From positions 22,771 through 86,770 of the forward strand of contig CAYFPJ010000001.1 in NCBI GenBank assembly GCA_964344965.1: 64,000 nt of DNA. The letters run 5' to 3'. Of the stretch, positions 19,386 to 57,626 are shown in pieces; position 1 is the first letter of the stretch; the number at the start of each line of letters is the position of its first letter. Source of the stretch: an uncultured Gammaproteobacteria bacterium. GTDB taxonomy: Bacteria > Patescibacteriota > Patescibacteriia > Magasanikbacterales > UBA922. Position numbers and translations under genes: made by a program. Under the pieces are notes generated by a model. The model searched no databases, was not told the DNA's origin, and worked only from the letters and a program-made list of their open reading frames with translations.

Positions 19386-19394
19386 GTTGTCTTG

Positions 19395-19473: not shown

Positions 19474-19495
19474 GGCGTGCGTTTAATTATTTTCG

Positions 19496-19579
19496 TGCCG
19501 AAGGAGGGACTTGAACCCTCAAGAGCTTGCGCTCGCAGCATTTTGAGTGCTGTGCGTTTACCAATTTCACCACTTCGGC
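19496..19579 (-). tRNA. tRNA-Leu (anticodon CAA)
   Basis: Reverse complement: GCCGAAGTGGTGAAATTGGTAAACGCACAGCACTCAAAATGCTGCGAGCGCAAGCTCTTGAGGGTTCAAGTCCCTCCTTCGGCA. Cloverleaf with long variable arm. Close to E. coli tRNA-Leu(CAA). CCA is not encoded. Confidence 0.8.
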
Positions 19580-19629
19580 ATATCACTTGAGCAAGGGATA
19601 TTATATATTTTATTGTTCATTTTGTCAAT

Positions 19630-36437: not shown

Positions 36438-37061
36438 ATGCAGAAGATAGAAAAAAATACTCCAAAAACACAAATTATTTTTTCAGTTATTATATTGTTG
36501 TTTGCCAATATACTTGTTATTGGTTTAGCCTTATTTTATTACTGGTCGCTTCATACATTTTTTTTGGTATTTTGGGCCCAAAGTTTGATTATTGGTTTTT
36601 TCTATATTTTGAAAATACTTGATCTAAAAAATTTTTCTACCGAGGGAGTAAAGGTCAATGGAAAATTGGTAAAACCAACAAAAAAGTTTAAAAAAGAAAG
36701 TGCTTGGTTTTTCTTACTCCATTATGGTTTTGTGCATTTTTGTATTTATTTTGCTATTGGTGATATGGCTGGGGAGGTTGATTGGAAAATGGTAATAATC
36801 GGGTCAATTATCTTCTTTGTAAATCACTGTTTGTCTTTTATCATAAATAGAAAACAAGATCGTCTACGGGTTTTTCATATTGGTAAAATTATGATTTTCC
36901 CATATTTGCGTATTTTTCCAATGATTATATTAATTTGGTTAGCATTGAACTTTGCTTCAGACCAATCAACACTTTTATTTTTTTTGGCATTTAAAATTGT
37001 GGCTGATATGACTATGCATGTTGTGGAGCATATTTGGCATGGTGAGACATCATTTTTGTAG
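36438..37061 (+). CDS. hypothetical polytopic membrane protein (207 aa)
   Basis: 5-6 hydrophobic segments. No motif. Confidence 0.45.
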   Translation: MQKIEKNTPKTQIIFSVIILLFANILVIGLALFYYWSLHTFFLVFWAQSLIIGFFYILKILDLKNFSTEGVKVNGKLVKPTKKFKKESAWFFLLHYGFVHFCIYFAIGDMAGEVDWKMVIIGSIIFFVNHCLSFIINRKQDRLRVFHIGKIMIFPYLRIFPMIILIWLALNFASDQSTLLFFLAFKIVADMTMHVVEHIWHGETSFL

Positions 37062-37065
37062 ATAC

Positions 37066-39943: not shown

Positions 39944-41290
39944 TTATGTCTTCGCAATCAACTCCTCAATATTTTTCACTCCTGTCATTTTTACATCTTT
40001 CATATTTGGTAAATTTTTTCCAGCAGCAGTGATTACTCGTTTCATACCCAGTGCGCTACTTTCTTTGATCCTTTTTTCCACATGTCTAACTGAGCGTACT
40101 TCGCCACCAAGGCCCACTTCACCAAATACTACCAGATCCTTACCCCCAGCTTTGTCTTTGAAGCTACTAGCAATAGCTAGGCAGACTGCCAAGTCAGCTG
40201 CTGGTTCATTAGCTTTCATTCCACCGACCACATTGATGTGAATATCATACTGACCAAGATTTAGTTTGGCACGTTTTTGTAATACTGCCACTAAGACATG
40301 AAGACGATTTAGGTCAAAGCCGCTGGCTTTCCTGACTGGATACCCAAAGCTGGTTTTATTCACAAGAGCTTGTATTTCTACGAGTATTGGTCTGGTTCCT
40401 TCCATAAGACAGGTGACAATGCTGCCAGGCATATCTTCTCCACGTTCCTCTAGAAAATTGGCAGAAGGATTTTTGACTCCATTTAGGCCGGTTGCAGTCA
40501 TTTCAAATATGCCGACTTCGTCTGTGGGCCCAAAACGATTTTTGACAGTCCTGAGTATTCTGTGCTGGTGATATCTGTCTCCTTCGAGATATAGGACTGT
40601 GTCCACCAGATGTTCAAGTGTCCGTGGGCCAGCCACAGATCCATCTTTGGTGACATGACCAATGAGCACTATTGCTGTATTGGTTGATTTGGCACATTCC
40701 AATAGTTTGGTGGTGCAAGCCCGGATTTGGTTGACATTCCCTGGCTCTCCACTGACATCATTGGAATAAAGTGTCTGAATGGAATCAATAATTGCCAAAG
40801 ATGGTTTGTTATTTTTGATGGTTGCTGAGACAGATTCGACATTTGTTTCGTTGGCCAGTTGTAGAGATGCAAAATTTTGTGTCTCTACGATACGGTCAGC
40901 TCGAAGTTTTATTTGTTCTATAGATTCTTCTCCAGAAATATATAGAGTAGGGGAAACACTGGCAGCAAGTTGAATCGACAAAGTGGATTTGCCAATCCCG
41001 GGTTCACCACCAAGCAATATTAGGCTGCCAGGTACCAGGCCACCCCCAAGCACACGATCAAGTTCAGAAAGTTTAGTATTAATTCTTTTTACATTCTCAC
41101 CTTTGATTTCAGTGAGAGTTTTTGTTTTTGCAGGTGCGTGTTGTTGCACCTTGTCAGTAGTCTGTGGTCCATAGTTCGTAGTCTGTTCTAAAGTTCCCCA
41201 CTTGCCGCATTCTAGACATCTTCCAGTCCATTTTCCAAATTGAGCTCCGCAATGAGAGCACTCAAAGATTTTATTATTTTTTTTATTCAT
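39944..41290 (-). CDS. radA: DNA repair protein RadA (Sms)
   Basis: N-terminal C4 zinc finger (CSHCGAQF...CLECGKW), RecA-like Walker A GEPGIGKST, KNRFG motif, Lon-protease-like C-terminus. ATG start at 41290 preferred over GTG at 41308. Confidence 0.9.
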   Translation of the reverse strand: MNKKNNKIFECSHCGAQFGKWTGRCLECGKWGTLEQTTNYGPQTTDKVQQHAPAKTKTLTEIKGENVKRINTKLSELDRVLGGGLVPGSLILLGGEPGIGKSTLSIQLAASVSPTLYISGEESIEQIKLRADRIVETQNFASLQLANETNVESVSATIKNNKPSLAIIDSIQTLYSNDVSGEPGNVNQIRACTTKLLECAKSTNTAIVLIGHVTKDGSVAGPRTLEHLVDTVLYLEGDRYHQHRILRTVKNRFGPTDEVGIFEMTATGLNGVKNPSANFLEERGEDMPGSIVTCLMEGTRPILVEIQALVNKTSFGYPVRKASGFDLNRLHVLVAVLQKRAKLNLGQYDIHINVVGGMKANEPAADLAVCLAIASSFKDKAGGKDLVVFGEVGLGGEVRSVRHVEKRIKESSALGMKRVITAAGKNLPNMKDVKMTGVKNIEELIAKT

Positions 41291-41301
41291 ATCTATACAG
41301 T

Positions 41302-43443
41302 TTAACACGAAGTTTCAAAACAACTAACAGTCCTGCTATCCTCTAATGGATTTTTTGGATATTCAAAGTGCCATACCTCTGATTTCAACCTCTTCCATCC
41401 TGCGGCATACATAATCTCAGCTAGTTTTTTGTTGAATTTTCTGTATTCTTTATTGTTTTGCACAGCACGTTTTGTTGGCGCACTGATGCCAGTTTCTTTT
41501 TTCCCATTTATGATCGTAGTACCTTTCAATTGGACATCTATTGCTGTCCCAGAGCCGTGTCTTGAGCCACCTGGCCAAGCTATACTTGAGGGATTGAAGG
41601 TGCCTTTGATAATTTTGTCGCAGGCTATCTCTAGTTGTTCTTCCAAAGATCTGAATCCATAATAAACATTTATTTCTAATCCTTGACTACTGGCTAGTTT
41701 ACCAGCTTTTTTCAAAGGACCTACTATGCTAGGTAGAATGCGAGCAGGCTTACCGGTTGTAGCACTGGATCTGGCTACAATACCTACCATGTTGTGTTTC
41801 TTGACAGCATCTGACAATAGTATAACTTCTGATTCATCAGGAATGCCAGCTAGTTTATATTCACCCCATTTTTCCTTATTTTTACAGATTGGTAGACATT
41901 CCTTTTCTGAGCTACACAGCCTCTTGGCTGTTGATGGGTTAAGCTCATCTTCGGGATGAATGTGTTCTCCCTCTAAAGCATAATCTAGAGATTGTGGAGT
42001 GAAAGTGATTACTCTTAGATTTTTGAATTTTACCAATTCAGGATTTACTAGGTATAAAATAGTATAAGATCCTACCGCCAAGAGTAATCCAGTGATCGAG
42101 TTCAAAAGCATCTTCTTTGCCTCTGTCACCTTCTCACTATTTCCTCCAGAAATGATAAGGGTAAAACCAGAATTAATAATCATCACAACAGCAATAATAC
42201 TCATAATAGCTACGCCATATCTATAGATGGCAGCTAGGTATTCGCCGAGGTAGGGGATAGACAAAAATTCATTTCCATGCTCATCTGCATGTAATACAAG
42301 ATTTTCAGGACTAAAGTTGAGGCCGGGAATATTTATTTTTGGTTGTGGTCTGTGGGTGATTTGTTCTATTTCACCTATTACTCCAGATCCATGCTCTGGG
42401 ATAAGCACATCATCCTTTATTGTTTCACATGTTGATTCTACTCCAGATACGTGACCATTGTATTTACCTATATGCGCCTTCACTTCACCTGGAAAATTAT
42501 CTTTATCAAACAAAACCATCTCTGTACCGTCAAAATAATAGAAAGAAACAGACAGTAGGCCACTTTTCAAAACATCTACCCACACAAATGACTGAGTAGC
42601 TTTGTCTTTTTGGCCGATTTTTTTGGAGTTCCAGTAATTGACCATACCTTTGATTGGTAGTACTACTCTTTTTCCCAGTGTGCCTGTGTTAACATATCTA
42701 AAATTATTGCAGGTCGCATCATAAAAGGCGTGATTGTGGCCAGAAAACAGTGTGCTTATATTTTTTTCTTCTAATTTTTTTACAAATAGAGGATAGTTTT
42801 TTATATCTCCAGAATCATTTAGAGCTAGAGCGCTTTCTGTATTTACATTGTAGGGGTGAATATGCTTGAAGACCAGGTCTCCGGACTGAACATTGTTTTC
42901 TATCCAACTCATTTCTTCATTTTGGAGCCCCCATGACTTGTAGTAACTGATCATAGAGAAGTAAACCCCCTTGTAAGTGAAACGATAAGAGCTCTCTGGA
43001 AATCCAGAAGCATTTTTGGCTTGAGATAGAACACTACTCTTGTTGTTGTCCCAGAATTTTTCCCAAAATATCATGCCATTATCCTTACCAATACCAAACC
43101 CGTCGTGATTTCCTGCCACTGGTACAAAGGGTACTTTCAATTTATCTAAATACACTTTCTTAAATTCGGCCCACTGTTCTTCGGCAGTATGAAAAGGATG
43201 TGTGTGTTTGCATTCTCCGCCACCACCAATTAGATCTCCCGCACCCACTACAAATGCTGGTTTTCGATCGTTGATAATCTCTACAGCATATTTTGACCAC
43301 TTTCCTTGTCTAATGTGGCATTTATTTATATCATGAGTATCTGATATTACTGCGAAACTAAATAAGACGTCTTCTTCAGCCAAAGAGGGAAGAGGGAAAA
43401 GGATAATGATTAATAAAAATATTACATACCAAATATTTTTCAT
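41302..43443 (-). CDS. mosaic envelope protein P1: signal peptide + calcineurin-like metallophosphoesterase + conserved two-TM pilin-like module + VanY-like M15 D,D-carboxypeptidase domain
   Basis: Phosphoesterase motifs (ISDTHD, GDLIGGG, GNHDG, SGHNHAFY). Module YLAAIYRYGVAIMSIIAVVMIINSGFTLIISGGNSEKVTEAKK...LLAVGSYTILYLVNPELVKFKNLR. C-terminal SRHGSGTAIDV and EVWHFEY match the M15B (VanY) SxHxxGxAxD / EWWHF motifs. Confidence 0.7.
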   Translation of the reverse strand: MKNIWYVIFLLIIILFPLPSLAEEDVLFSFAVISDTHDINKCHIRQGKWSKYAVEIINDRKPAFVVGAGDLIGGGGECKHTHPFHTAEEQWAEFKKVYLDKLKVPFVPVAGNHDGFGIGKDNGMIFWEKFWDNNKSSVLSQAKNASGFPESSYRFTYKGVYFSMISYYKSWGLQNEEMSWIENNVQSGDLVFKHIHPYNVNTESALALNDSGDIKNYPLFVKKLEEKNISTLFSGHNHAFYDATCNNFRYVNTGTLGKRVVLPIKGMVNYWNSKKIGQKDKATQSFVWVDVLKSGLLSVSFYYFDGTEMVLFDKDNFPGEVKAHIGKYNGHVSGVESTCETIKDDVLIPEHGSGVIGEIEQITHRPQPKINIPGLNFSPENLVLHADEHGNEFLSIPYLGEYLAAIYRYGVAIMSIIAVVMIINSGFTLIISGGNSEKVTEAKKMLLNSITGLLLAVGSYTILYLVNPELVKFKNLRVITFTPQSLDYALEGEHIHPEDELNPSTAKRLCSSEKECLPICKNKEKWGEYKLAGIPDESEVILLSDAVKKHNMVGIVARSSATTGKPARILPSIVGPLKKAGKLASSQGLEINVYYGFRSLEEQLEIACDKIIKGTFNPSSIAWPGGSRHGSGTAIDVQLKGTTIINGKKETGISAPTKRAVQNNKEYRKFNKKLAEIMYAAGWKRLKSEVWHFEYPKNPLEDSRTVSCFETSC

Positions 43444-43505
43444 ATTTTCCTAATTTTATAACATTGATTCTACTCCAGGCAAACAAGTATACAGGCTAAA
43501 ATAGA

Positions 43506-45431
43506 TTACAATTTTTTTGTGATCAAGTCTGTGTCTATTAGTGGACATTTTGTATCATTCCTGTCTTTGAACTTGAAAGTTGAGCCAAGGGACTTGGCTG
43601 TATCAATAACCCCTTTCCCTCCTTTGAAACCATCGTTTGTATGTCTTTTGGCACAATAATATTTCCTTTTTGTTTTTGGGTTTATTGTGTTGCACAGTTT
43701 TTCATCACCAGCCTTTGTTGCCTCTCCCATAATAACTTGTTTCGTAGGATTTTTGAATTCATGCTTGATCCACATATCATATATTACATCATGTGCTTTA
43801 TTCCAATCGCATGTGGGATCTATAATTTTTAATTTTGTCATAATATTTTTTGCACCACCAAGTCCACTGTGGTGACCTGTGTACATAAAGAATACTTTTG
43901 ATTCATTTGTGGCTTTTGGGCAGACTTTTTCGACTAGCTTATAGGAGGCGCGCAGTGAGCTTGCTCCCACCATGGTGCTTACCTCAGGATCAGTTATTTC
44001 TTCACAGTAGTCACTAAGCCCGTATTTTCCTAGATACCCGTTACTTCCATTTCCTTCACAATTTTTTTTTGTCGTTTGGAATAATCCTTTATATCCTGTA
44101 TCACTCACTGCATCTGGATTTAGCCTGGATTCTCTATAAGCAACCGCCTTTAGAATTTTCCAATCTACATCAAGACAAGATTCATATTTTTGGAATATAG
44201 AATCGTAAGTAGCATTTCCTGTAGATGATTTTGAGGATGAAGAAATTTTTAAGGGTTGACCTTTGTCTAAGATATCCAAAGGAAGACCTTGTACAGTGAG
44301 TATGCGTAAATTTTTAAATTTTACCAACTCTGGATTAATAGTATAGAGTAGGGTGTAAGAGCCTACTGCAAGGATAAGAGCTGTAATGGAATGGATTATT
44401 TTATCTTTTGCTTTGGTGATTTTTTCACTATTGCCACTGGATATGATGTATTGGAAACCAGCGTCGATAATCATCACAACAGCAATTATACTGATGATGA
44501 CTACTGCATATCTATAGATGGCAGCTAGATATTCTCCGAGGTAGGGGATTAAGATGAACTTACTACCCACCTCATCTTCTTCTTGGAGTAAATTTTCGGG
44601 ATTAGAAAAATCAAGACCAGGAATTTTTATTTTTGTTTGCGGTTTTTCTATCTTTAGTTCAATGTCACCGAACACTGATAAATCTGAGACAACTATTGAG
44701 CCATCAAAATCAAATTTTTTGTCGCCGTAAGCTAAAACCATTATCAATTGGTGAAGTAGTTTATGTCCTTCACTATTCATATGAAGACCATCCCCACTGT
44801 CGTAGATGGTCTGCATGCCTTGACCCCCATCTTCTATATATGGATATATATCTACAAATACGTCGAGACCATAAGGTTTGGAACTCAACCACAGAGCATT
44901 GTCTCGAACATTTTTCCCCCACAATTTGGTCCACTCAACTGTTTTCCCTTCCTTGGTGACAGTTTTATAATTGGCAAATGGTTGGGCCCCAGTGACTATC
45001 GTCCTTATTCCCTCTAATTCAGCTTGTTGGAGTATTTTTTTAAAACTGTCTTTGGATTTGTCTGGTGCTTTTGTAGATCCCATGAAGTTTAGACCAGAAT
45101 AAATTATCAGATCATCGTAGCCTCGCCCTTTGACCTTGTCATTGAATTGATCTAAAAACCATTTGTGACCGGTACTACTTTTTACGAAGCAATCAATTTT
45201 GTGTTTTGGTAAAGAATTTTTTAATCTTTTTATCACTCCCCAGTTTTTATTACATCCAGCTGCATAGGTGGATGATCCTATGACTGCAATTTTACCACCC
45301 TCCTCTGTCTCAGCTATGCTGGTGACTGGATAAAAAAAATAAAATGTGAATATAACACAAAATATAAAACTAATTGTTTTCACTACTTTATTTCCAAAGA
45401 TGCTGTTCATAGTTGTAAAATAGTCTCCCAA
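43506..45431 (-). CDS. mosaic envelope protein P2: SGNH/GDSL-like esterase + the same two-TM pilin-like module + lytic transglycosylase (SLT) domain
   Basis: SGNH block V DGLHMNSEGHKLL. Module YLAAIYRYAVVIISIIAVVMIIDAGFQYIISSGNSEKITKAKDK...ILAVGSYTLLYTINPELVKFKNLR is about 75% DNA-identical to P1. SLT motif AYRESRLNPDAVSDTGYKGLFQ. Confidence 0.7.
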   Translation of the reverse strand: MGDYFTTMNSIFGNKVVKTISFIFCVIFTFYFFYPVTSIAETEEGGKIAVIGSSTYAAGCNKNWGVIKRLKNSLPKHKIDCFVKSSTGHKWFLDQFNDKVKGRGYDDLIIYSGLNFMGSTKAPDKSKDSFKKILQQAELEGIRTIVTGAQPFANYKTVTKEGKTVEWTKLWGKNVRDNALWLSSKPYGLDVFVDIYPYIEDGGQGMQTIYDSGDGLHMNSEGHKLLHQLIMVLAYGDKKFDFDGSIVVSDLSVFGDIELKIEKPQTKIKIPGLDFSNPENLLQEEDEVGSKFILIPYLGEYLAAIYRYAVVIISIIAVVMIIDAGFQYIISSGNSEKITKAKDKIIHSITALILAVGSYTLLYTINPELVKFKNLRILTVQGLPLDILDKGQPLKISSSSKSSTGNATYDSIFQKYESCLDVDWKILKAVAYRESRLNPDAVSDTGYKGLFQTTKKNCEGNGSNGYLGKYGLSDYCEEITDPEVSTMVGASSLRASYKLVEKVCPKATNESKVFFMYTGHHSGLGGAKNIMTKLKIIDPTCDWNKAHDVIYDMWIKHEFKNPTKQVIMGEATKAGDEKLCNTINPKTKRKYYCAKRHTNDGFKGGKGVIDTAKSLGSTFKFKDRNDTKCPLIDTDLITKKL

Positions 45432-46075
45432 CCCTCTACATATGAAGGAGGAGCAATTTGTTCATTGTCTATGAATATTGCTGGTACTGCTTGTATATTT
45501 AGTAGAATGGCAAGTTGTTTGTTTCTTTCTACATAGTCGGTTGGTGCTGAAGTGGCAAGGCATCCAGCCATTTTTTCTGTATCTAGTCCTATGTCAGATG
45601 ATATGGCAGCCAATGTTTCTGGAGATAGATTTTCCAAATTATCAAAGGCTAGATTTTTGAATTCTTCAAATTTTCCTTGTAGGGCAGCACAATAAGAGTA
45701 GCGATGGGATGGCTCACTAGATACAGGGAATGTTTTTACAGGCAGTCCTTTCCAGATTACTTTTATCCGACCCGGATGCTTTTTTCTAAGTCCGTCTAAG
45801 ATTACCATCTGATTTTTACATCCTTGGCAGGCAAAATCTTCAAAAACTACAATAGTCTTGCCGGCATTTACACTTCCAAGCACAGGATCATCTGGGAATA
45901 TTGGTACTAGCTCTATTCCTGTATTTGCCTGATTTTTTATCTGCGGTTTTTGAAAAATATTGTTGTGCTGTATCAGACGGATGCCAAATATAATAGTGAT
46001 TAGAAGTATGGCAGGGACAAAAACAGATAAAATGTGTTTTGTTTTGATCATATTTGTAACATTTATTCCACCCAA
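45407..46075 (-). CDS. membrane-anchored DsbA-like thiol:disulfide oxidoreductase (thioredoxin fold)
   Basis: N-terminal TM, CxxC active site FACQGCKN, DsbA-like helical insert. The start may be 46051. Confidence 0.65.
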   Translation of the reverse strand: MGGINVTNMIKTKHILSVFVPAILLITIIFGIRLIQHNNIFQKPQIKNQANTGIELVPIFPDDPVLGSVNAGKTIVVFEDFACQGCKNQMVILDGLRKKHPGRIKVIWKGLPVKTFPVSSEPSHRYSYCAALQGKFEEFKNLAFDNLENLSPETLAAISSDIGLDTEKMAGCLATSAPTDYVERNKQLAILLNIQAVPAIFIDNEQIAPPSYVEGWETILQL

Positions 46076-46189
46076 GGCAGAAAAGTAGACTGATTAAAAA
46101 AGGTAGCACAGATACTTTATTGCATGATAAGAGTTTTATTTTACCATGACTCCATATACCTGTTACCTCTGACTTATTTCAGTAAAAGT

Positions 46190-47428
46190 TTATAATTCCA
46201 CATTAAATAAACCATCTTGGTTTTTGTCTGTAAAATAAATTTTGTCACCCTTGTCATCCAAAAATAGATTATCTATTGTGTGCGGCTTGTCCATGATAAT
46301 TTCTTTTTTTAGGCCGGTCTGAGTATCTATCTTATACAATTTGTCAGGAGTATTGTCAGCTAACTCTGGGACAAATCCAGACCCTTTGGAAAGATCAGTT
46401 GGGACTCCGCAATATACAAATCTATCATCAGCAAACGTGCATTTGTCTGCCCAGGTGTTCACATTCAAGAGCTTTCTGCCTGTTCCTATATTGTCTCCTT
46501 GAGCATTAACTATCCAGAGTTCTGGCTGAAAGTTGCTTCTTGAGCTATAGACGCTGTGCAGAAGCTTGTCTCCACTGGTAGACCATTTGGTCTTCAGGTC
46601 TCTCCCTTCCACAATGATGGATTTGAAATTCTCTCCATGTAGTCCGACCAGTAGCACTTCTTGCCTATCATTGCCAAGCACCTCTCCAGTCCTAGAGAGA
46701 GCCACTACCTGCTTATTTGGGGACCAATCCATGATTACTTTGTAAGCATTTTTTCCCATTGGCTCTACAGCTTTCACATTGTTTCCATCTGGATCGGATG
46801 TTACCAACCAACGGTTTTCTGGAGAAAAGCCCATACTCTTTGAAGCGATTTGACTTCCGTCATCTGAAAAGGTGAATTCTTGCCAATGCTGAGGTAGGGT
46901 AACCTGTTTTTTGGTGGTGAAATTGTAATAAATATTGGATCCGTCAGGATACTCAATGATGGATTCATTTTTTGTCGGTGACCATGTCACTTTTTGGACT
47001 TCGTAAAATACCTCATCACTGAGAGGTTGGGCCGTACCATCATCCATTAGTCTATAAAATTTACCATCTCCTTCATTATAAAATTTTGCCGCTCCAATAC
47101 TATCTTTTTGGACACCAACAAGTGGTGATTCTATCACTTGCTCTATATTTATGTCTTCCTCAAAAAATGTATCATCATCGTCAAAGTCTATTCCGCCACC
47201 GCCCGGTACTGTGCCTATGGTAGGTAGGTCACTGGTCCCACTTCCTGCAGACCCTGTATCGACAGACCCTTCTCCTGAAGCAGGGAATTGACCAGCCTCT
47301 CCAGTGGTTGTGGTAGTAGCCTCCGGGTCAATTTTTGGTGGAGCAAAAAATATGCGATACAGTAAGTATCCTAGTGCAATAGTGATTATTATGAACCCGA
47401 CTATGAGAGCAAGAAGTTTTTTGTCCAT
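46190..47428 (-). CDS. membrane-anchored beta-propeller (TolB/PD40-like) protein with Thr/Gly-rich linker
   Basis: N-terminal TM, poly-T/G linker, repeated ...PDG(S/N)...(I/V)Y... blades. Low-confidence fold call. Confidence 0.4.
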   Translation of the reverse strand: MDKKLLALIVGFIIITIALGYLLYRIFFAPPKIDPEATTTTTGEAGQFPASGEGSVDTGSAGSGTSDLPTIGTVPGGGGIDFDDDDTFFEEDINIEQVIESPLVGVQKDSIGAAKFYNEGDGKFYRLMDDGTAQPLSDEVFYEVQKVTWSPTKNESIIEYPDGSNIYYNFTTKKQVTLPQHWQEFTFSDDGSQIASKSMGFSPENRWLVTSDPDGNNVKAVEPMGKNAYKVIMDWSPNKQVVALSRTGEVLGNDRQEVLLVGLHGENFKSIIVEGRDLKTKWSTSGDKLLHSVYSSRSNFQPELWIVNAQGDNIGTGRKLLNVNTWADKCTFADDRFVYCGVPTDLSKGSGFVPELADNTPDKLYKIDTQTGLKKEIIMDKPHTIDNLFLDDKGDKIYFTDKNQDGLFNVEL

Positions 47429-47450
47429 ATTTTATTATTTTGTTAAGTTT

Positions 47451-49766
47451 TTAATTTTTTGTTTTTTTGGAGAGGAGTGTTTGTCTTTCTCTTTCTTTTG
47501 ATTCTATTTCTTTGCTTACTTTTTTTGATGCACTCCTGTTATCTTGTTCATTTATAAATTCAAAAATAACCAGAAGTATGTTGACGCCAGGAATCATCTT
47601 TAGCAAAAATGTCACACAACTTCCACTTTTGTAGGGTTTACCTTGGGTCAGTTTCATCAGTGCTACTATGGGCATTCCAATCCCTGAAAGTGTAAGTAAA
47701 TGTACAAAACACCCGGTAAGCTCATCTTCATTATCTATTTGATTGTCTATTTTCTTTTTTTGTTTTTTTAGTTTGCTAATGTCCTTATCCAGGTCCTGTG
47801 CTTTTTTATTATTTTTATTTTTTTGCTCTCTTTTTTTGTTATCCAACTCATTTTTTCTGTCTTTCTCTGTTTCGGATCTTTCCTTATTTTTTTCTTTATC
47901 CTTATCTTTTCCTTTTCCTTCTCCTTCTCCTTCTTGTTTATCTTTTTTTTCTGAATCATCTCCCTCATTTTTACTCTCATCTTCAGCCTCTTCTTCCTTT
48001 TCTTCTTCCTTTTTTTCGTCTATGGCAGAATCTTTTTTTCCGTCCAGCGCGTCAGCTGCTTGCTGCCACTTGTCAGCATTCCAAAAACTTGGCATACCAC
48101 CGGGCATTTTTTGCTTACTGTCTTCTTCTGGATCACTGCCATCTTCTGTATCACCATCTTGTTTGTCATCATTTTTTTCTTTGTCATCTTTTACATACTC
48201 TTCACCACCTGGCGCACTCTTTGCAGATTCTTCGTCAGCTTTTTTCTCTTTTTCAGATGGTTCATCACTTTCATCATCTCCGTCATCGTCCTCTTCATCT
48301 TCTTCTGCGTCTTCTGGTGAATCAGTATCATCGTCTGCATTCTCACCATCTACTGGCTGATCTTCTCCCTCGTCGTCATCATCATCAAAAAAATCATCCA
48401 TGCCTGGCACACCTTGTGCCATTCCTGCCAGTCCGTGTCCACCATCTGGTGCATCTTCATCAGTTGTATCTTTTTCATCGTCAGCTTTATCTTCGTCATC
48501 ACCTGCATCTTTTTTTTCATCAGGCCTTTTTTCACCTTCATCGGGTGTTGGTTTTTCGTCTGATGGTAGCAGATCACCACTCGGCGTATCATCAAGGCTG
48601 TCAGCTGCTTGTTGCCACTGATCATCACCCCACATGCTTGCCGGTCCTTTTGGGTTACTTGGTTTTTTTGGTTCTTCGCTTTTTTCATCTCCGCTATCAT
48701 CACCATCATTTTTACCACCTGCATCTTTATCTTTGTCACCACCTTCTTCCTCTTTTGGTTTGTCTGTTTCTGTACCATCTTTTTTTTCGTCTTCTGGTTT
48801 TTTTTGATCTTCCTTTTGCGGTGTATTGTCAGACTTGTTATTGGATTTATCGGAACCTTCTTCTACTTTTTTACCGCCATTATCTGATGCCGGATCACCA
48901 CTCGGCGTATCATCAAGGCTGTCAGCTGCTTGTTGCCACTGATCATCACCCCACATGCTTGCCGGTCCTTTTGGTCTACCTGGTTTTTCTTGGTTTTCAT
49001 CTTTTTTATTTTTATTCTCATCCTCATTTTCACCATCTCCACCTTCTTTCGATTTCTCTGGCTCTGCTTCATCTTTTGGTTCTCCTGCTTTTGTGCCATC
49101 TTTGTCGCCATCTGACTTTTCTGGATTTCCTTTTTCTTTTGGTGCGTCATCAGATTTACCATCTGACTCATTGGATTTGTTGTCGGAACCTTCTTCATTT
49201 TTTTTGTTATCATCGTTTGTTGGCGCATCAAGACTATCTGCAGCTTGTTGCCACTTGTCTGCACCCCAAAAGCTTGGCAATCCGCCTGGCATGACTGTTC
49301 TTGGCTTGCTTGGTTCAGTCGAAGCTTGTCCAGATTCTTGCTTCGGTACCTCAGCTTTTTCAGAGGCGGGTTTAGTTTGTGCTTTTTCTGGTTTTTTGGG
49401 AGTTTGTTTTTTGGGAGTAGGCTGTCGTCCTCTTTCTTGGTTTTCCTTCCTTTTTGCTTTCTTTGCCTTATCCCTCTTTTTTTTTGCTCGTTTGTTTGCT
49501 GCCTTTCTTTTCTTTTTTCTTTCTTGCGCCCTCCTTTGTCCTGGAGTTAGTTGATTGCTATCTCTGGCAGAATTTTTCAGATCCTCTCTGTTTGATGATG
49601 CTCCCCGCGTTCTATTGGTAGCTGATCGCGAACTAGGCTCTCTTCTTTTTGCTTCTTTCTTATTGCCTTGACGACGTGGAGCATCCTGATCATCACCCAC
49701 AAGAGGGGCTGGCACCTTTCTGGCAGCATTTGATTTTCTGTTTTGCTGATCAGATTGATCTGCCAT
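47451..49766 (-). CDS. 771-aa intrinsically disordered poly-acidic/Lys-rich repeat protein with four (M/F)WG(D/A)D(Q/K)WQQAADSLD motifs and a C-terminal hydrophobic anchor
   Basis: Repeats PASMWGDDQWQQAADSLDDTPSGD (x2, encoded by an exact 83-bp direct repeat), PSFWGADKWQQAADSLDAPTNDD, PSFWNADKWQQAADALDGKKD. Basic N-terminus. Hydrophobic GMPIVALMKL...VNILLVIFEF near the C-terminus. Confidence 0.6.
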   Translation of the reverse strand: MADQSDQQNRKSNAARKVPAPLVGDDQDAPRRQGNKKEAKRREPSSRSATNRTRGASSNREDLKNSARDSNQLTPGQRRAQERKKKRKAANKRAKKKRDKAKKAKRKENQERGRQPTPKKQTPKKPEKAQTKPASEKAEVPKQESGQASTEPSKPRTVMPGGLPSFWGADKWQQAADSLDAPTNDDNKKNEEGSDNKSNESDGKSDDAPKEKGNPEKSDGDKDGTKAGEPKDEAEPEKSKEGGDGENEDENKNKKDENQEKPGRPKGPASMWGDDQWQQAADSLDDTPSGDPASDNGGKKVEEGSDKSNNKSDNTPQKEDQKKPEDEKKDGTETDKPKEEEGGDKDKDAGGKNDGDDSGDEKSEEPKKPSNPKGPASMWGDDQWQQAADSLDDTPSGDLLPSDEKPTPDEGEKRPDEKKDAGDDEDKADDEKDTTDEDAPDGGHGLAGMAQGVPGMDDFFDDDDDEGEDQPVDGENADDDTDSPEDAEEDEEDDDGDDESDEPSEKEKKADEESAKSAPGGEEYVKDDKEKNDDKQDGDTEDGSDPEEDSKQKMPGGMPSFWNADKWQQAADALDGKKDSAIDEKKEEEKEEEAEDESKNEGDDSEKKDKQEGEGEGKGKDKDKEKNKERSETEKDRKNELDNKKREQKNKNNKKAQDLDKDISKLKKQKKKIDNQIDNEDELTGCFVHLLTLSGIGMPIVALMKLTQGKPYKSGSCVTFLLKMIPGVNILLVIFEFINEQDNRSASKKVSKEIESKERERQTLLSKKTKN

Positions 49767-49773
49767 AAATTTT

Positions 49774-52326
49774 TTAGACCAATCTATACTCTTTGGCCAC
49801 TCTCTTTAGAGTATAGTCTTTTTTGGTTATTTTTTTTCTTAATATATTAGATACAGCCTCACTAATAATTTTTTCTACCACAGTTTCAAGTATTCTGGCT
49901 CCTGTGTCTTCATCGTACGATTCTTTGATGATACTCTTTATGGTAGGTTTGTCTGAGGAAATTGTGATATTGTCTTTAACCAACTTTTTATTTATTTGTT
50001 CTATCCTATTTTTTATTATCTCTTCTAGTGTTTCTTCTGATAGAGTAGAGAAGAAGCAAGTTTGATCCAGTCTTCCGAGCAGCTCTGAACCAAATTGTTC
50101 TTTTAGTTTGGAGTTGATGGCGGAGTTTATTTCTTTTTTTATTTCAGCAGTCTCTTTATCTCTGGAATGACCAAATCCAATACCGTGAGATTTGTATAGC
50201 TCTGATCCAACATTGGAAGTGAGAATTATAGTGGCATGCGAAAAGTTTATTTTTTTACCAGCACTATCTGTCAATTCCCCTTCATCCAAAATTTGCAATA
50301 ACAAACGAACGACATCTGGATGAGCCTTGTCCACTTCATCGAATAGTACGACCGAGTATGGTCTTTTTTTGATCTCATCTGCAAACCTATTTCTTTCTTT
50401 GTGCCCTATATATCCAGCAGGGGAGCCAAGGAGCTTCGATATTCCATGCTGCTCAGCAAATTCGCTCATATCTAGTTTGACAAGAGCTTTCTCATCAAAA
50501 TACATTTCTTTGGCTAAGACTTTGGCTAGTTTGGTTTTACCCACTCCACTTGGGCCCACGAAGAGTAGAGAGGCAAAAGGTTTTTTTTCTGATTTGAATC
50601 CAAGGTGGGATTGCTTGAGAGAGGAGACTATCTGATCTATTGTTTTGTCTTGGCCAAAAATTTGTTTTTTTATTTTCTTACCCAAGACGTCGAGCTGCTT
50701 CCAGGTACTACTAGTCAATATTTTAGGGTCGACGTTCAATCTTTTTCCTACTATCTTGGCAATATGGGTCACTGTAATTGGTTTTTTGGGGATTGATTTG
50801 CTGTTGGCTATCTTTTTCTCTAGATTAGAAATTTGTTTTTGCAGTTTCTCAGCCTGTTTTTTCAATTCCATTGCTGCTGAAAATTCTTCGGCATGAATAG
50901 CCTGAGCCTTACATTCCAATACATTTTCCAATTCTTTTTTTATTTTTTCTAATTTTTTTTGGGTAGGATGCATTTTTTGCTTGTTCTTCACAGAAGCTGC
51001 TGCCTCGTCAATTAGGTCAATTGCCTTGTCTGGCAAGAAATTGTCATGCACATACTTGATGCTGAGATCCACTGCTGATTCGACTACCTTTGATGATATC
51101 TGGACGTGATGGAATTTTTCATACTGCTTTTTCACACCCTCTAGGATTTCTAAGACTTCTTCCCGTGTTGGCTCATCGATGTCAATGGACTGAAATCTTC
51201 TTTCAAGTGCTGGGTCAGATGAGATATGTTTTTTATACTCATCAATTGTGGTTGCACCGATACAGCGTAGCTGACCTCTTGCCAAAGCTGGCTTGAGGAT
51301 ATTTGCCGCATCCATGGTGCCTTGATTTGATCCTGCTCCAATGATGTTGTGGATTTCATCAATAAAAAGAATAATGTTCGGATTCATTTGTACTTCTTCA
51401 ATGATTTGTTTCAATCTACTTTCAAATTCACCGCGGTAGATTGTCCCCGCAATCAGAAGGGTCATATCAAGAGAGAGAATTTTTTTATTTCTCAGCACAT
51501 CTGGGACTTGACCTTTGAATATTTTTTTTGCCAAGCCTTCTACAATTGCTGTCTTTCCTACACCCGGCTCACCAACTAGGACAGGATTGTTTTTGTTTCT
51601 TCTGCCTAGTATATTTATCAGTCTTTCCATTTCGTCTTTTCTGCCTATCACTGGGTCCAGGTCGGCCTGAATATTCTTACTTGTCAGATCTGTAGCAAAG
51701 GTTTCAAGAGCAGTCATTTGCTTATGGTGATTTTTGTTATTTCTCTCTCTCTTTTTAATTTGTAATTTTGGAGAAGAGATGGCAGGCGGACCTATATCTT
51801 GCTCCATGTGATCCATGGCTTCTGCCACATCATCCACAGTCGGGAAACGGCTTGTATTTTGGACAATAGCCAGGATCTGCTCCTCTATTTCTTCGGTTGC
51901 AGTTTTTGTTTGATTTATTACTTTTTGAACATGTAAGTCTTTTGTTTTGATGAGTCCGTATAGAAGATGCTCTGTACCGACGTAGCCGTTGCCATACTCA
52001 TAAGCCAAGAGCATGGCTTTTTCGAGAGCATTTTTTGAGGCAGAATTTAGATTTGGTAAGGTGGCGGTCAGTGTGTGTCCTGAGCCCTCTTCGTTTTGGT
52101 GAGGTTTTATGATGATAGAAGAAAGCAGAGTGGAAATTTTTGTTGGGGTTATTTTATTGTTTTGTAAAATTTGGTTGGCTATCGAACCTTTTTCTTCACT
52201 CAGTGCTAGGAGAATATGGAGAGGAGTGACATCTGGATGTTTATTTTCAGATGCAGTAGATATACTTCTTGCAATGACATTTTTTAGGTGAGTCGATAAT
52301 TTGTCTAGCAGATGATCGGTATTCAT
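49774..52326 (-). CDS. clpC: Clp-family AAA+ chaperone ATPase (ClpC/ClpB type, two AAA modules, Clp_N repeats, coiled-coil M-domain)
   Basis: Walker A GEPGVGKTAIVEGLA and GPSGVGKTKLAKVLA, sensor/arginine fingers, a GIGFG loop at the ClpP-docking position. 850 aa. Confidence 0.85.
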   Translation of the reverse strand: MNTDHLLDKLSTHLKNVIARSISTASENKHPDVTPLHILLALSEEKGSIANQILQNNKITPTKISTLLSSIIIKPHQNEEGSGHTLTATLPNLNSASKNALEKAMLLAYEYGNGYVGTEHLLYGLIKTKDLHVQKVINQTKTATEEIEEQILAIVQNTSRFPTVDDVAEAMDHMEQDIGPPAISSPKLQIKKRERNNKNHHKQMTALETFATDLTSKNIQADLDPVIGRKDEMERLINILGRRNKNNPVLVGEPGVGKTAIVEGLAKKIFKGQVPDVLRNKKILSLDMTLLIAGTIYRGEFESRLKQIIEEVQMNPNIILFIDEIHNIIGAGSNQGTMDAANILKPALARGQLRCIGATTIDEYKKHISSDPALERRFQSIDIDEPTREEVLEILEGVKKQYEKFHHVQISSKVVESAVDLSIKYVHDNFLPDKAIDLIDEAAASVKNKQKMHPTQKKLEKIKKELENVLECKAQAIHAEEFSAAMELKKQAEKLQKQISNLEKKIANSKSIPKKPITVTHIAKIVGKRLNVDPKILTSSTWKQLDVLGKKIKKQIFGQDKTIDQIVSSLKQSHLGFKSEKKPFASLLFVGPSGVGKTKLAKVLAKEMYFDEKALVKLDMSEFAEQHGISKLLGSPAGYIGHKERNRFADEIKKRPYSVVLFDEVDKAHPDVVRLLLQILDEGELTDSAGKKINFSHATIILTSNVGSELYKSHGIGFGHSRDKETAEIKKEINSAINSKLKEQFGSELLGRLDQTCFFSTLSEETLEEIIKNRIEQINKKLVKDNITISSDKPTIKSIIKESYDEDTGARILETVVEKIISEAVSNILRKKITKKDYTLKRVAKEYRLV

Positions 52327-54263: not shown

Positions 54264-54521
54264 ATGAAAATTCTCTATAAGCCGACATTTTTGAGGCAGT
54301 ACAAAAAGTTACCAAAAAATCTTCAGAAAGAGGTAAAAGAAAAGATAAATCTATTTGAAGATGATCCGTCTCACCCTTTCTTAAAGACGCATAAATTGCA
54401 TGGACCATTGAAAGGAAGTTATAGCTTTTCTGTTAATTATAAGTATCGAATTGTGTTTGAGTATACAAAAGAAGGGGATGCAGAGTTGCTTGCGGTGGGT
54501 GATCATAGTGTGTACTCCTAG
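54264..54521 (+). CDS. RelE/ParE-family toxin
   Basis: 85 aa. ...LKTHKLHGPLKGSYSFSVNYKYRIVFEY... matches the RelE/ParE fold pattern (K..L.G.L.G.....V...YRI.Y). Confidence 0.7.
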   Translation: MKILYKPTFLRQYKKLPKNLQKEVKEKINLFEDDPSHPFLKTHKLHGPLKGSYSFSVNYKYRIVFEYTKEGDAELLAVGDHSVYS

Positions 54522-56945: not shown

Positions 56946-57626
56946 TTAATCGTCCTTGATTACTATATCTCCTTTTTCATTTTTTGTTAAATTGTGGGAT
57001 AAGAAAATTAGTTCTAAATTTTTAGCCTTTATAAAATCTACTGGGTAAATTACATTTTTTATTTTTCTAAGATCCTGATCCAAAATATGTTTGTTTTTTT
57101 CTGTGTTGTAGGCTTTTAGATCAAATCCAGCTTGCCTGTAGGCATGATCTACAAGTTGGGTACAAAAAAAATCTTCAATATCATTTTTGAAATAAAAATC
57201 ATAAGGTTTGCCAAGTTGTTTTTTGGCAAACCCTATTGCTTTGTGGATTATTTTTTTTCTTTTTTTTGAATTTATTTTTGGTCTTAGAATAGCTAGAGTA
57301 TCATATTGTTTGAATATCTCTTTCATGTTGATATAACAAACTCCCTCTACAACAGAGTGAATCATTTTTTTTTTGGATACATAAAGAAGAGAGTGGGTAA
57401 CAGGGCCGGGAATGACCAGTGAGCTGGCATAGGTGAGATTACCAGCTACCACAATATCTCCTTTTTTTACAAGACGAGCAGTTTTTTTATAATCAGAATG
57501 AGTAAGAAGATTATTGCGAAATTTTATTTTCAATTTTCCCAAAAATGTTAGAACATTACCAAAAATCTTATGGAAGATTGTTGAACCTTTTTTGAAATTT
57601 TTGATAATATGATATTTGCCAGTCAT
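56946..57626 (-). CDS. YiiX/YaeF-like (DUF830, permuted papain-fold) protein
   Basis: Pattern ...SHSLLYV...YDFYF...FCTQLVDHAY resembles the permuted NlpC/P60-like C92 family. Moderate to low certainty. Confidence 0.4.
   Translation of the reverse strand: MTGKYHIIKNFKKGSTIFHKIFGNVLTFLGKLKIKFRNNLLTHSDYKKTARLVKKGDIVVAGNLTYASSLVIPGPVTHSLLYVSKKKMIHSVVEGVCYINMKEIFKQYDTLAILRPKINSKKRKKIIHKAIGFAKKQLGKPYDFYFKNDIEDFFCTQLVDHAYRQAGFDLKAYNTEKNKHILDQDLRKIKNVIYPVDFIKAKNLELIFLSHNLTKNEKGDIVIKDD

What the first reader, a model, noticed from the sequence alone, without database searches (positions are those of the whole stretch)
41302..52326. Minus-strand clpC-to-radA cluster with two paralogous pilin-module/peptidoglycan-hydrolase fusion proteins
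Six genes are packed head to tail on the minus strand with gaps of 0-60 nt: clpC, a 771-aa acidic repeat protein, a TolB-like propeller, a DsbA-like oxidoreductase, P2 and P1, ending just before radA.

P1 and P2 are mosaics. P1 carries a metallophosphoesterase and a VanY-like M15 peptidase. P2 carries an SGNH esterase and an SLT lytic transglycosylase. Each pair flanks the same roughly 110-aa module: KI(N/K)IPGL(N/D)FS..PENL...IPYLGEYLAAIYRY, two TM helices joined by GGNSEK..AK, then NPELVKFKNLR.

The two-helix module resembles VirB2/TrbC-type pilin hairpins; that is my inference. Together with a disulfide oxidoreductase, a propeller and a Clp ATPase, it looks like a cell-wall-breaching or surface-filament apparatus rather than housekeeping peptidoglycan turnover. 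I do not recognise this arrangement as a described system.
Basis: partly seen in the sequence, partly recalled or inferred. Interest (0 to 1): 0.85.

Follow-up and report, generated by a model that had tools for sequence, protein, structure and literature searches.

The report
Pilin-anchored wall hydrolases of a secretion system
Two cell-wall-cutting enzymes in an uncultured ultrasmall bacterium are built around a membrane hairpin borrowed from type IV secretion pilins, and with their propeller and disulfide-oxidase partners they form a detached, so far undescribed part of that group's type IV secretion gene cluster.

Summary
Genes, domains and catalytic motifs are as described. P1 and P2 share a 140-aa module at 63% identity.

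The module is a Patescibacterial VirB2-like pilin hairpin (Pfam PF18895) with an N-terminal extension. It is embedded between extracytoplasmic enzyme domains.

The window comes from a Magasanikbacteria (Patescibacteria, class ABY1) chromosome. In 68 of 69 species-level relatives with enough sequence, the same order recurs: clpC, propeller, DsbA-like gene, one or two module-hydrolase genes, radA, recG. The hydrolase type changes from species to species: SLT, Amidase_2, VanY/M15, C39-like, M23, CHAP, GH18.

In sister lineages the same gene set (pilin-module protein, propeller, DsbA-like, radA, recG) lies directly downstream of virB4, PrgI/VirB3 and TraC-like genes. Some of those operons contain pilin-VanY fusions.

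So this cluster is most likely a detached distal part of the ABY1 type IV secretion system. The fused enzymes would act as its wall-opening (VirB1-like) component. ClpC is only the upstream neighbour.

No virB4 lies in the window, and no biochemical or structural evidence exists. Fold searches of the hairpin were uninformative.

I found no description of the fusions, the propeller or the DsbA partner in the literature I could search. I rate this a new variant of a known kind.

The parts
49774..52326 (-). clpC (850 aa): upstream, co-directional neighbour. Probably co-transcribed, but not a specific part of the system.
   Evidence: Pfam Clp_N, AAA, AAA_lid_9, AAA_2, ClpB_D2-small. Upstream of the propeller in the Magasanikbacteria loci. 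Replaced by virB4-cluster genes in sister lineages.
47451..49766 (-). 771-aa acidic repeat protein. It has a large, presumably cytoplasmic disordered region with four W[GN]xDxWQQAADxLD repeats and two C-terminal TM segments.
   Evidence: No significant Pfam or NCBIfam hit. Relatives have a 106-124 aa helical protein plus a 281-454 aa acidic TM protein at this position. Similarity to ORFs between virB4 and the pilin gene is only weak (E about 1e-4).
46190..47428 (-). Membrane-anchored 7-bladed beta-propeller: TM helix residues 3-27, disordered linker 36-89, propeller 95-411, invariant Cys330/Cys340.
   Evidence: AF2 pLDDT 87. Foldseek hits to generic propellers. 1994 homologues, the best 120 at 52-78% identity; invariant Cys330/Cys340 in the 61-sequence alignment. 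Homologues sit next to pilin genes in virB4 clusters: L009 (E 3e-6 to the window protein, up to 4e-14 to relatives) and L096 (34% identity, E 1e-60). 24 of 40 virB4 loci have one.
45407..46075 (-). Membrane-anchored DsbA-like thiol-disulfide oxidoreductase (CQGC at residue 83).
   Evidence: Thioredoxin_4 E 7e-15, DSBA E 8e-9. TM segment and CxxC motif. Conserved next to the propeller in all 8 relatives' loci first examined and in nearly all 80 genome loci. Present in virB4-linked operons.
43506..45431 (-). P2 (641 aa as listed; likely start at the ATG at 45410, giving 634 aa): signal peptide, SGNH-type esterase, pilin-type module, SLT lytic transglycosylase.
   Evidence: (P0001, 634 aa, 100% identical).
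44757..45278 (-). P2 N-terminal SGNH/GDSL-like esterase domain (residues 52-225; GSS52, DGLH214).
   Evidence: GDSL_2 18 bits, below cut-off. Orthologues P0002, P0003, P0005 and P0009 carry PF13472. 9 of 82 locus proteins hit it, best E 4.6e-17.
44256..44675 (-). P2 pilin-type module (residues 253-392): beta-hairpin extension, TM helix 1, short basic loop (SGNSEKITKAKDK), TM helix 2, INPELVKFKNLR.
   Evidence: PF18895 31.0 bits, above cut-off 26.6. NF045849 (Mycoplasma ICE pilin-like protein) 21.4 bits, below cut-off. AF2 hairpin pLDDT 96-98. Alignment A1.
43896..44198 (-). P2 C-terminal SLT lytic transglycosylase domain (residues 412-512; ES434, GLFQ449). The C-terminal part of P2 carries 8 Cys.
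   Evidence: PF01464 E 1.9e-11, 44 bits. Motifs and Cys count.
41302..43443 (-). P1 (713 aa): signal peptide, metallophosphoesterase, pilin-type module, VanY/M15 zinc peptidase.
42727..43359 (-). P1 N-terminal calcineurin-like metallophosphoesterase domain (residues 29-239; DTH, GDLIG, GNHD, GHNH).
   Evidence: PF00149 E 4.4e-12. Motifs. This partner domain is rare: none of the 82 locus proteins hit Metallophos at E 1e-3, and 2 hit Exo_endo_phos.
41965..42381 (-). P1 pilin-type module (residues 355-493).
   Evidence: 63% identical to the P2 module. PF18895 24.1 bits, just below cut-off.
41359..41712 (-). P1 C-terminal VanY/M15 (LAS-type) zinc peptidase domain (residues 578-695; SRHGSGTAID, EVWH). 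The C-terminal part of P1 carries 6 Cys.
   Evidence: PF02557 E 1.5e-8. NF007557 E 1.9e-9, far below its equivalog cut-off. Motifs. VanY-type pilin fusions occur inside or next to virB4 operons: L105, L129, L127.
39944..41308 (-). radA: conserved downstream neighbour. Its start overlaps the P1 stop by 7 nt.
37018..39336 (+). recG: conserved convergent neighbour that marks the end of the syntenic block.
   Evidence: PMC12102498 section 14 notes recG and radA near T4SS genes in class ABY1.

Best explanation
The four genes propeller, DsbA-like, P2 and P1 are a detached distal module of the type IV secretion system (T4SS) of class-ABY1 Patescibacteria. The acidic membrane protein upstream probably belongs to it too.

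Shown:
- P1 and P2 each have a cleavable-looking signal peptide.
- Each has two enzyme domains that flank a two-helix membrane hairpin of the T4SS-pilin family.

Inferred from topology:
- Both enzyme domains sit outside the membrane and the short basic loop sits inside. This is the topology known for VirB2-type propilins.

Inferred mechanism:
- The hairpin docks the enzymes in the membrane at or near the T4SS platform. There they cut the peptidoglycan locally so the channel or pilus-like structure can cross the wall. In other T4SSs this role belongs to VirB1, PrgK, TraG or CwlT.
- In P2 the SGNH esterase would remove O-acetyl groups that block lytic transglycosylases, and the SLT domain then cleaves the glycan strand.
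- In P1 the M15 peptidase cuts stem peptides. The phosphoesterase may remove phosphodiester-linked wall polymers; this is the weakest inference.
- The DsbA-like oxidase forms the disulfides of the Cys-rich external domains.
- The tethered propeller, on a roughly 50-residue flexible linker, is a conserved partner of unknown ligand.
- ClpC and RadA are neighbours, not parts.
For: Family:
- PF18895 hit above cut-off for P2.
- 60 of 82 locus proteins, 70 of 92 library representatives and 32 of 34 virB4-linked relatives hit PF18895.
- A few relatives hit TrbC/VirB2 PF04956 at about 1e-4.
- A free-standing 143-aa pilin (P0054), encoded beside PrgI, TraC-like and VirB4-like genes, matches the hairpin (E 7.6e-16; context).

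Synteny with T4SS:
- L096 reads VirB4, 183-aa, 103-aa, pilin-module protein, propeller (34% identity, E 1e-60), DsbA-like (E 4e-14), RadA (55%), recG.
- Of 40 virB4 loci with at least 4.5 kb downstream, 24 have a module protein plus a propeller homologue on the same strand within 8 kb. 7 also have the DsbA-like gene and 9 have radA.
- Pilin-VanY fusions sit between propeller/DsbA and radA inside virB4 operons in L105 and L129.
- L121, L127 and L131 place a Magasanik-type block right beside a virB4 cluster.

Conservation:
- 68 of 69 Magasanikbacteria species loci with at least 3 kb after the propeller have 1-2 module proteins after propeller-DsbA.

Genomes:
- Two Magasanikbacteria genomes that carry the detached locus (L041, L089) are listed as VirB4-positive in Table S1 of PMC12102498.

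Topology and disulfides:
- Signal peptides, two TM segments, a basic loop, even Cys counts confined to the external domains, and CQGC in the oxidase.

Literature:
- PMC12102498 notes that most Patescibacteria with VirB2 homologues lack VirB1, and that other hydrolases may fill the role.
Against: - No virB4, PrgI, TraC-like or VirB6-like gene lies in the 64-kb window or within 9 kb of the locus in 80 Magasanikbacteria genomes. Coupling to a T4SS in this organism is inferred from homology and from two VirB4-positive relatives.
- Whether the source genome itself has virB4 could not be checked (one search failed).
- The locus is universal, single-copy and embedded among housekeeping genes, which also fits a housekeeping wall function.
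- The hairpin fold is generic and gave no specific match to solved T4SS pilins.
- Most virB4-linked module proteins carry Cys-rich C-terminal domains without a recognisable hydrolase; roughly 7-8 of 34 have one.
- No expression, localisation or activity data exist.
Confidence: 0.6

Rival explanations
1. Housekeeping autolysins. The pilin hairpin has been co-opted as an ordinary two-helix membrane anchor. Propeller, DsbA-like protein and hydrolases remodel the bacterium's own wall during growth or division, independently of any T4SS.
For: - The locus is present in 68 of 69 species-level Magasanikbacteria loci with enough sequence. It is single-copy, lies between clpC and radA, and is surrounded by housekeeping genes.
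- No T4SS core gene lies nearby.
- The propeller is much more conserved (52-78% identity) than expected for a host-facing protein.
- A membrane tether keeps the enzymes at the inner face of the cell's own wall (inference).
- The fold search shows nothing pilin-specific.
Against: - The same three-gene set sits directly downstream of virB4 in sister lineages, with the same radA and recG flank.
- The hairpin retains family-specific residues shared with free-standing T4SS pilins, for example the INPELV motif.
- Frequent swapping of the enzyme type between species is unusual for a core divisome hydrolase, though not excluded.
Confidence: 0.2
2. Host-directed weapons. The hairpin is a working pilin that VirB4 extracts from the membrane. 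The fused hydrolases are displayed on, or at the tip of, a T4SS pilus, or are released by cleavage near the INPELV motif. They open the cell wall of the host bacterium on which the epibiont feeds.
For: - At one fixed locus the enzyme cargo varies between species over at least ten families covering every bond type in peptidoglycan. This pattern is typical of polymorphic effectors.
- The SGNH plus SLT pairing suits O-acetylated, lysozyme-resistant walls (inference).
- The T4SS and its pilin array are essential for epibiotic growth in Southlakia (PMC10633639; PMC12857230).
- Proteins with 3-11 tandem hairpins, two of them ending in an SLT-like domain, exist.
Against: - Globular domains of 180-400 aa on one or both ends of every subunit are hard to fit into a VirB2-type helical polymer (inference from published pilus structures, my own knowledge).
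- No cleavage site or release signal has been shown.
- The partner propeller is highly conserved rather than diversifying.
- The host of Magasanikbacteria is unknown.
Confidence: 0.15
3. A ClpC-powered apparatus. The AAA+ unfoldase ClpC energises extraction or turnover of the hairpin proteins.
For: clpC is co-directional, 7 nt from the next gene. It is the upstream neighbour in the Magasanikbacteria loci examined.
Against: - In virB4-linked versions the module follows T4SS core genes, not clpC.
- The cytoplasmic loop of the hairpin is only a few residues long.
- clpC next to radA is an old housekeeping arrangement in Firmicutes (my own knowledge).
Confidence: 0.03

Closest known systems
Patescibacterial VirB2-like T4SS pilins (Pfam PF18895), e.g. 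the essential pilin array of Ca. Southlakia epibionticum (PMC10633639; PMC12102498)
   Same: Same hairpin family by profile, same signal peptide plus two-helix topology, same conserved C-terminal INPELV-type motif. In sister lineages it is encoded in the same operon as virB4.
   Different: Those pilins are mostly small (about 100-150 aa), free-standing and highly variable. Here the hairpin carries a conserved 45-aa N-terminal extension, is much better conserved (32-64% identity to the P2 module across the 44-sequence alignment A1), and is embedded in 350-970 aa proteins with enzyme domains on one or both sides. In Magasanikbacteria it is encoded away from virB4.
T4SS-associated peptidoglycan hydrolases: VirB1 (Agrobacterium), PrgK (pCF10), TraG (pIP501), CwlT (ICEBs1)
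   Same: SLT, peptidase or amidase domains encoded with a T4SS. In monoderm systems they are often bifunctional and membrane-anchored, and are proposed to open the wall locally for the channel.
   Different: Those enzymes use a signal peptide or a single N-terminal TM helix, never a pilin hairpin. Typical pairs are SLT plus CHAP. Here the enzyme families are swapped freely between species, and an SGNH esterase or a phosphoesterase can be added.
Ape1-type O-acetyl-peptidoglycan esterases working with lytic transglycosylases (Neisseria, Campylobacter; my own knowledge)
   Same: The SGNH esterase plus lytic transglycosylase logic of P2.
   Different: In the known cases they are separate periplasmic proteins of diderm bacteria. 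Here they are fused on either side of a membrane hairpin. Activity is not tested.
Mbov_0395 family pilin-like conjugal transfer protein of Mycoplasma ICEs (NCBIfam NF045849)
   Same: A weak profile match to the same hairpin (21.4 bits). It is another wall-less or monoderm T4SS with a pilin-like two-helix protein.
   Different: The match is below the family cut-off (40 bits). Those proteins are about 80 aa and have no enzyme domains.
TolB
   Same: A beta-propeller located outside the cytoplasmic membrane. Some homologues show faint PD40 repeat hits.
   Different: Seven-bladed and TM-anchored through a disordered linker. No TolB N-terminal domain and no Tol-Pal partners. It is not a TolB family member.

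Membership tests
PF18895 T4SS_pilin (Patescibacterial VirB2-like pilin) | Profile match at or above the Pfam gathering score (26.6 bits) | tested here: met
   P2 31.0 bits. P1 24.1 bits (just below), but 63% identical to P2 over the module. 60 of 82 locus homologues match at E <= 1e-3.
PF18895 T4SS_pilin (Patescibacterial VirB2-like pilin) | Signal peptide followed by a two-helix membrane hairpin with a short, basic cytoplasmic loop | tested here: met
   AF2 helices 49-83 and 88-118 of the module at pLDDT 96-98. Hydropathy, AxA-type signal ends (SLA/EE, SIA/ET) and loop sequences.
PF18895 T4SS_pilin (Patescibacterial VirB2-like pilin) | Encoded within or next to a virB4 gene cluster | tested here: not met
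   No virB4, PrgI or TraC-like gene in the window or within 9 kb in 80 Magasanikbacteria loci. The feature is met by homologous loci in sister lineages.
PF18895 T4SS_pilin (Patescibacterial VirB2-like pilin) | Small free-standing subunit able to polymerise into a pilus | tested here: not met
   P1 is 713 aa and P2 is 641 aa. All 82 locus proteins have at least 179 aa after the module, and 58 of 82 have at least 100 aa before it. Polymerisation itself cannot be tested here.
TrbC/VirB2 (PF04956) | Profile match | tested here: not met
   No hit for P1 or P2 at E <= 0.1. Only 1 of 92 and 2 of 34 relatives hit, at about 1e-4.
TrbC/VirB2 (PF04956) | Structural match to solved conjugative pilins | tested here: inconclusive
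T4SS-associated wall hydrolase (VirB1 / PrgK / TraG functional class) | Peptidoglycan-cleaving catalytic domain with intact catalytic motifs | tested here: met
   SLT 44 bits with ES...GLFQ. VanY 34.9 bits with H-D-H zinc ligands.
T4SS-associated wall hydrolase (VirB1 / PrgK / TraG functional class) | Encoded in the T4SS operon | tested here: inconclusive
   Not in this window. Pilin-VanY and pilin-SLT homologues do sit in or beside virB4 operons: L105, L129, L127, L121.
T4SS-associated wall hydrolase (VirB1 / PrgK / TraG functional class) | Required for T4SS assembly or transfer | not testable with these tools
   Needs genetics in a cultivable relative.
SGNH/GDSL hydrolase (PF13472) | Profile match above the gathering score, with Ser (block I) and DxxH (block V) | tested here: inconclusive
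   P2 scores 18 bits against a cut-off of 32.9. GSS52 and DGLH214 are present. Proteins at the same locus in other species reach E 4.6e-17.
Calcineurin-like metallophosphoesterase (PF00149) | Profile match plus the DxH, GDxxG, GNH(D/E) and GHxH motifs | tested here: met
   47.3 bits. All four motifs found.
DsbA-like thioredoxin (PF13462 / PF01323) | Thioredoxin fold profile and a CxxC active site, located outside the cytoplasm | tested here: met
   56 bits and 36 bits. CQGC83 and an N-terminal TM anchor.
TolB | TolB N-terminal domain plus a six-bladed PD40 propeller, within a Tol-Pal context | tested here: not met
   No Pfam hit for the window protein. Seven blades, a TM anchor and a linker. 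The best fold matches are WD40, tricorn and oligogalacturonate lyase propellers.

The most novel reading that the evidence does not exclude
The hairpin still works as a pilin. VirB4 extracts P1- and P2-type proteins from the membrane and builds them into, or onto the tip of, a T4SS filament. This would give an enzyme-armed pilus that digests the wall of the host bacterium. The species-to-species swapping of hydrolase type at one fixed locus would then record an arms race with host wall chemistry.
Probability: 0.15. Interest if true: 0.9.

Novelty: new variant of a known kind. Interest (0 to 1): 0.62.

Why it matters
Patescibacteria make up a large share of bacterial diversity, and the cultivated ones live attached to other microbes. 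In the one genetically tractable species their T4SS, with its unusual pilins, is essential (PMC10633639). How it crosses a wall, and what it does, is unknown.

The main comparative study notes that most genomes with VirB2-like pilins lack a VirB1 hydrolase (PMC12102498). This finding offers a concrete answer for one large class. The wall-cutting enzymes are fused to the pilin module itself and travel with two further conserved partners, a tethered propeller and a DsbA-like oxidase.

The family is large:
- 1,063 clusters at 50% identity match the profile at E <= 1e-30.

It gives defined soluble domains that can be tested on peptidoglycan. It also provides a natural series of cargo swaps that could be compared with host range.

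Tried and rejected
- Searching the 119-aa module alone in the word-indexed protein database found only one protein. The full-library profile search later gave the real numbers.
- A profile search of solved structures gave only a non-significant match to the MscL periplasmic loop plus TM2 (E 0.56).
- The fold search on the propeller gave only generic propellers, with no functional lead.
- ClpC as part of the machine was rejected on synteny.
- Homology between the acidic membrane protein (or the small helical protein of relatives) and ORFs between virB4 and the pilin gene was only weak and composition-prone (E about 1e-4) or absent. I make no claim from it.
- Attempts to identify the source assembly and check it for virB4 failed. 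The cluster look-up gave no accession, and the exact look-up of P0001 found nothing on record.
- A promoter scan was no better than shuffled sequence (42 sites against 33 +/- 6).
- Literature searches for described pilin-hydrolase fusions found none. The library lacks most subscription journals.
Full report
**1. What is there**

The minus strand between 41302 and 52326 carries six tightly packed ORFs, followed by radA:
- clpC, 850 aa
- a 771-aa acidic protein
- a 412-aa protein
- a 222-aa DsbA-like protein
- P2, 641 aa as listed; the database copy P0001 starts 7 residues later (634 aa)
- P1, 713 aa

Gaps and overlaps are 7, 22 and 114 nt, an overlap, 62 nt, and an overlap of 7 nt. No terminator-like site on the minus strand lies inside the block.

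The rest of the 64-kb window is ordinary chromosome. It holds ribosomal proteins, SecY, ParAB, TopA, RelA, DprA, RecG, tRNA synthetases and others. Homologues name the lineage as Candidatus Magasanikbacteria, Patescibacteria class ABY1.

**2. The two mosaic proteins**

- P1: Metallophos (47.3 bits), PF18895 T4SS_pilin (24.1 bits, cut-off 26.6), VanY (34.9 bits).
- P2: GDSL_2 (18 bits, below cut-off), PF18895 (31.0 bits, above cut-off), SLT (44 bits).

P1 and P2 share 140 residues at 63% identity and nothing else.

Each protein has a signal peptide ending in an AxA-type site, then two hydrophobic helices joined by a short basic loop. Cysteines occur in even numbers and only in the flanking domains.

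AlphaFold2 with a 44-sequence alignment predicts four elements in order: a small beta-hairpin, a 35-residue helix, a four-residue turn and a 31-residue helix. The pLDDT is 96-98 over the hairpin.

The inferred topology puts both enzyme domains outside and the loop inside.

**3. Is the module a pilin?**

By sequence family, yes.
- P2 passes the PF18895 threshold.
- 70 of 92 library representatives, 60 of 82 proteins from verified loci and 32 of 34 virB4-linked relatives hit PF18895.
- A few relatives also touch TrbC/VirB2 PF04956 at about 1e-4.
- P2 weakly matches the Mycoplasma ICE pilin-like family NF045849.
- A free-standing 143-aa pilin (P0054) is encoded beside PrgI, a TraC-like gene and a VirB4-like ATPase. 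It matches the hairpin, including the C-terminal INPELV-type motif.

The module also differs from ordinary pilins.
- It has a conserved N-terminal extension (KPxxxIxIPGLxF ... IPyLGEY).
- It is far better conserved than the pilin arrays reported in the literature.
- It is always followed by at least 179 further residues.

**4. Size of the family**

A profile of the module against 1.84 billion representative proteins gave these cluster counts:
- 61,660 clusters at E <= 1e-3 (all hairpins of this type)
- 18,376 at E <= 1e-10
- 1,063 at E <= 1e-30 (essentially the full module)

Partner domains among 92 representatives and among 82 locus-verified proteins are almost all wall hydrolases. They include Amidase_2, SLT, VanY/M15/M15_4, Peptidase_C39_2, M23, NlpC/P60, CHAP, GH18 and SGNH esterases. 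Exo_endo_phos also occurs. P1's Metallophos partner is rare.

**5. Synteny in the same lineage**

Eight look-ups of relatives all gave the same order: small helical protein, acidic membrane protein, about 410-aa propeller, DsbA-like, module-hydrolase(s), radA. clpC lies upstream where the contig reaches that far, and recG lies convergent downstream.

A scan of species-representative genomes with the propeller alignment matched 555 places and returned 80 loci, all Magasanikbacteria-type.
- Of 69 loci with at least 3 kb after the propeller, 68 have a module protein within 4.5 kb.
- 54 loci carry one module protein and 14 carry two.

The propeller is 52-78% identical to the window protein among the best 120 homologues listed, whereas the enzyme cargo changes from species to species.

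The window has no further module copy.

**6. The link to type IV secretion**

This is the decisive result.

In L009, a clear T4SS cluster, the gene after the free-standing pilin encodes a TM-linker-propeller protein homologous to the window's 412-aa protein.

In L096 the order is as follows:
- VirB4-like gene
- two small membrane proteins
- a 384-aa pilin-module protein
- propeller (34% identity, E 1e-60)
- DsbA-like (E 4e-14)
- RadA (55% identity)
- recG, convergent

A metagenome scan seeded with VirB4 returned 80 loci.
- The typical operon runs: two large membrane proteins, PrgI, TraC-like, VirB4, module protein, propeller, sometimes DsbA-like and a second module protein, then radA and convergent recG.
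- Of 40 loci with at least 4.5 kb downstream of virB4, 24 show a module protein plus a propeller on the same strand. 7 also show DsbA-like and 9 show radA.
- L105 and L129 have a pilin-VanY fusion in exactly the position of P1.
- L127 has a pilin-VanY fusion, and L121/L131 a pilin-SLT fusion, in a Magasanik-type block lying beside a virB4 cluster.

The main comparative paper independently remarks that in class ABY1, T4SS loci commonly include recG and radA (PMC12102498). Its Table S1 lists two of the Magasanikbacteria genomes in my set (L041, L089) as VirB4-positive. Neither has virB4 within 9 kb of this locus.

So in Magasanikbacteria the distal part of the operon stays next to radA and recG, while the ATPase core lies elsewhere.

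**7. Mechanism**

Shown:
- the family assignment
- the domain and motif content
- the conserved gene partnership
- the physical linkage to virB4 in sister lineages

Inferred:
- the out-in-out topology
- docking of the hairpin at the T4SS membrane platform, as VirB2 docks on VirB6 in published models (PMC12857230)
- local wall opening by the fused enzymes, in the manner of VirB1, PrgK or TraG
- esterase-assisted lytic transglycosylase action in P2
- disulfide formation by the DsbA-like partner

The roles of the propeller, the acidic membrane protein and P1's phosphoesterase remain open.

The housekeeping-autolysin and host-directed readings are not excluded. Both are scored as rivals.

**8. Comparison and novelty**

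Patescibacterial T4SSs with VirB2-like pilins are known (PMC10633639, PMC12102498, PMC12857230). T4SS-associated wall hydrolases are also known.

PMC12102498 does not contain the words DsbA, thioredoxin or propeller, and uses 'fused'/'fusion' only for VirB3-VirB4. My literature searches found no description of a pilin module fused to wall hydrolases either. That paper explicitly leaves the missing VirB1 function open.

I therefore file this as a new variant of a known kind. Interest is moderate to high for specialists in secretion systems and in ultrasmall bacteria.

**9. Limits**

- Everything about function is inference from sequence and gene order.
- Presence of virB4 in this particular genome was not verified.
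- The literature library lacks most subscription journals.
- My ORF calls in fetched loci use the longest start, so protein lengths there are upper bounds.

Noticed in passing
Proteins P0175, P0176, P0177, P0209: Single polypeptides carry 3-11 tandem copies of the pilin-type hairpin. P0175 and P0176 have four hairpins followed by an SLT-like domain. P0209 has eleven hairpins in 1147 aa. Concatenated 'polypilins' are a second unusual architecture of this family.
   Followed up: no
window 44256-44675 and 41965-42381 (module); The module's N-terminal extension plus first helix weakly resembles the periplasmic loop plus TM2 of the mechanosensitive channel MscL (E 0.56, not significant). It may only reflect a beta-hairpin lying on the membrane surface ahead of a TM helix.
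   Followed up: no
window 47451-49766 (-): The 771-aa acidic protein has four copies of W[GN]xDxWQQAADxLD (residues 167, 272, 379, 562) and two C-terminal TM segments. Relatives instead have a 106-124 aa helical protein plus a 281-454 aa acidic TM protein. This gene may therefore be a fusion or expansion of the two.
   Followed up: partly
window 54264-54521 (+): An 85-aa ParE/RelE-type toxin ORF (PF05016, 27.8 bits). A partner antitoxin was not looked for.
   Followed up: partly
window 18414-19586 (-) and tRNA-Leu 19495-19579 (-): A second metallophosphoesterase ORF. Its longest reading runs over the tRNA-Leu gene, so the real start must lie further in.
   Followed up: no
window 56946-57626 (-) and 16127-17158 (+): Other wall-active enzymes lie outside the cluster: a YiiX/C92 permuted papain-like amidase and an S11 DD-carboxypeptidase. 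P1 and P2 are therefore not the only wall enzymes encoded in the window.
   Followed up: no
L018-L091, record titles: Many species-representative MAGs that carry this Magasanikbacteria-type locus are titled 'uncultured Gammaproteobacteria bacterium'. One is titled 'Methanosarcinales archaeon'. The titles look like placeholder or wrong taxonomy.
   Followed up: no
L047: This is the only one of 69 Magasanikbacteria loci with enough sequence that shows no module-bearing ORF after the DsbA-like gene. It could be a loss, a frameshift or an assembly problem.
   Followed up: no
L008:3509-3898: In one relative a 129-aa secreted, very Cys-rich protein is inserted between the DsbA-like gene and the pilin-amidase gene. 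Its function is unknown.
   Followed up: no
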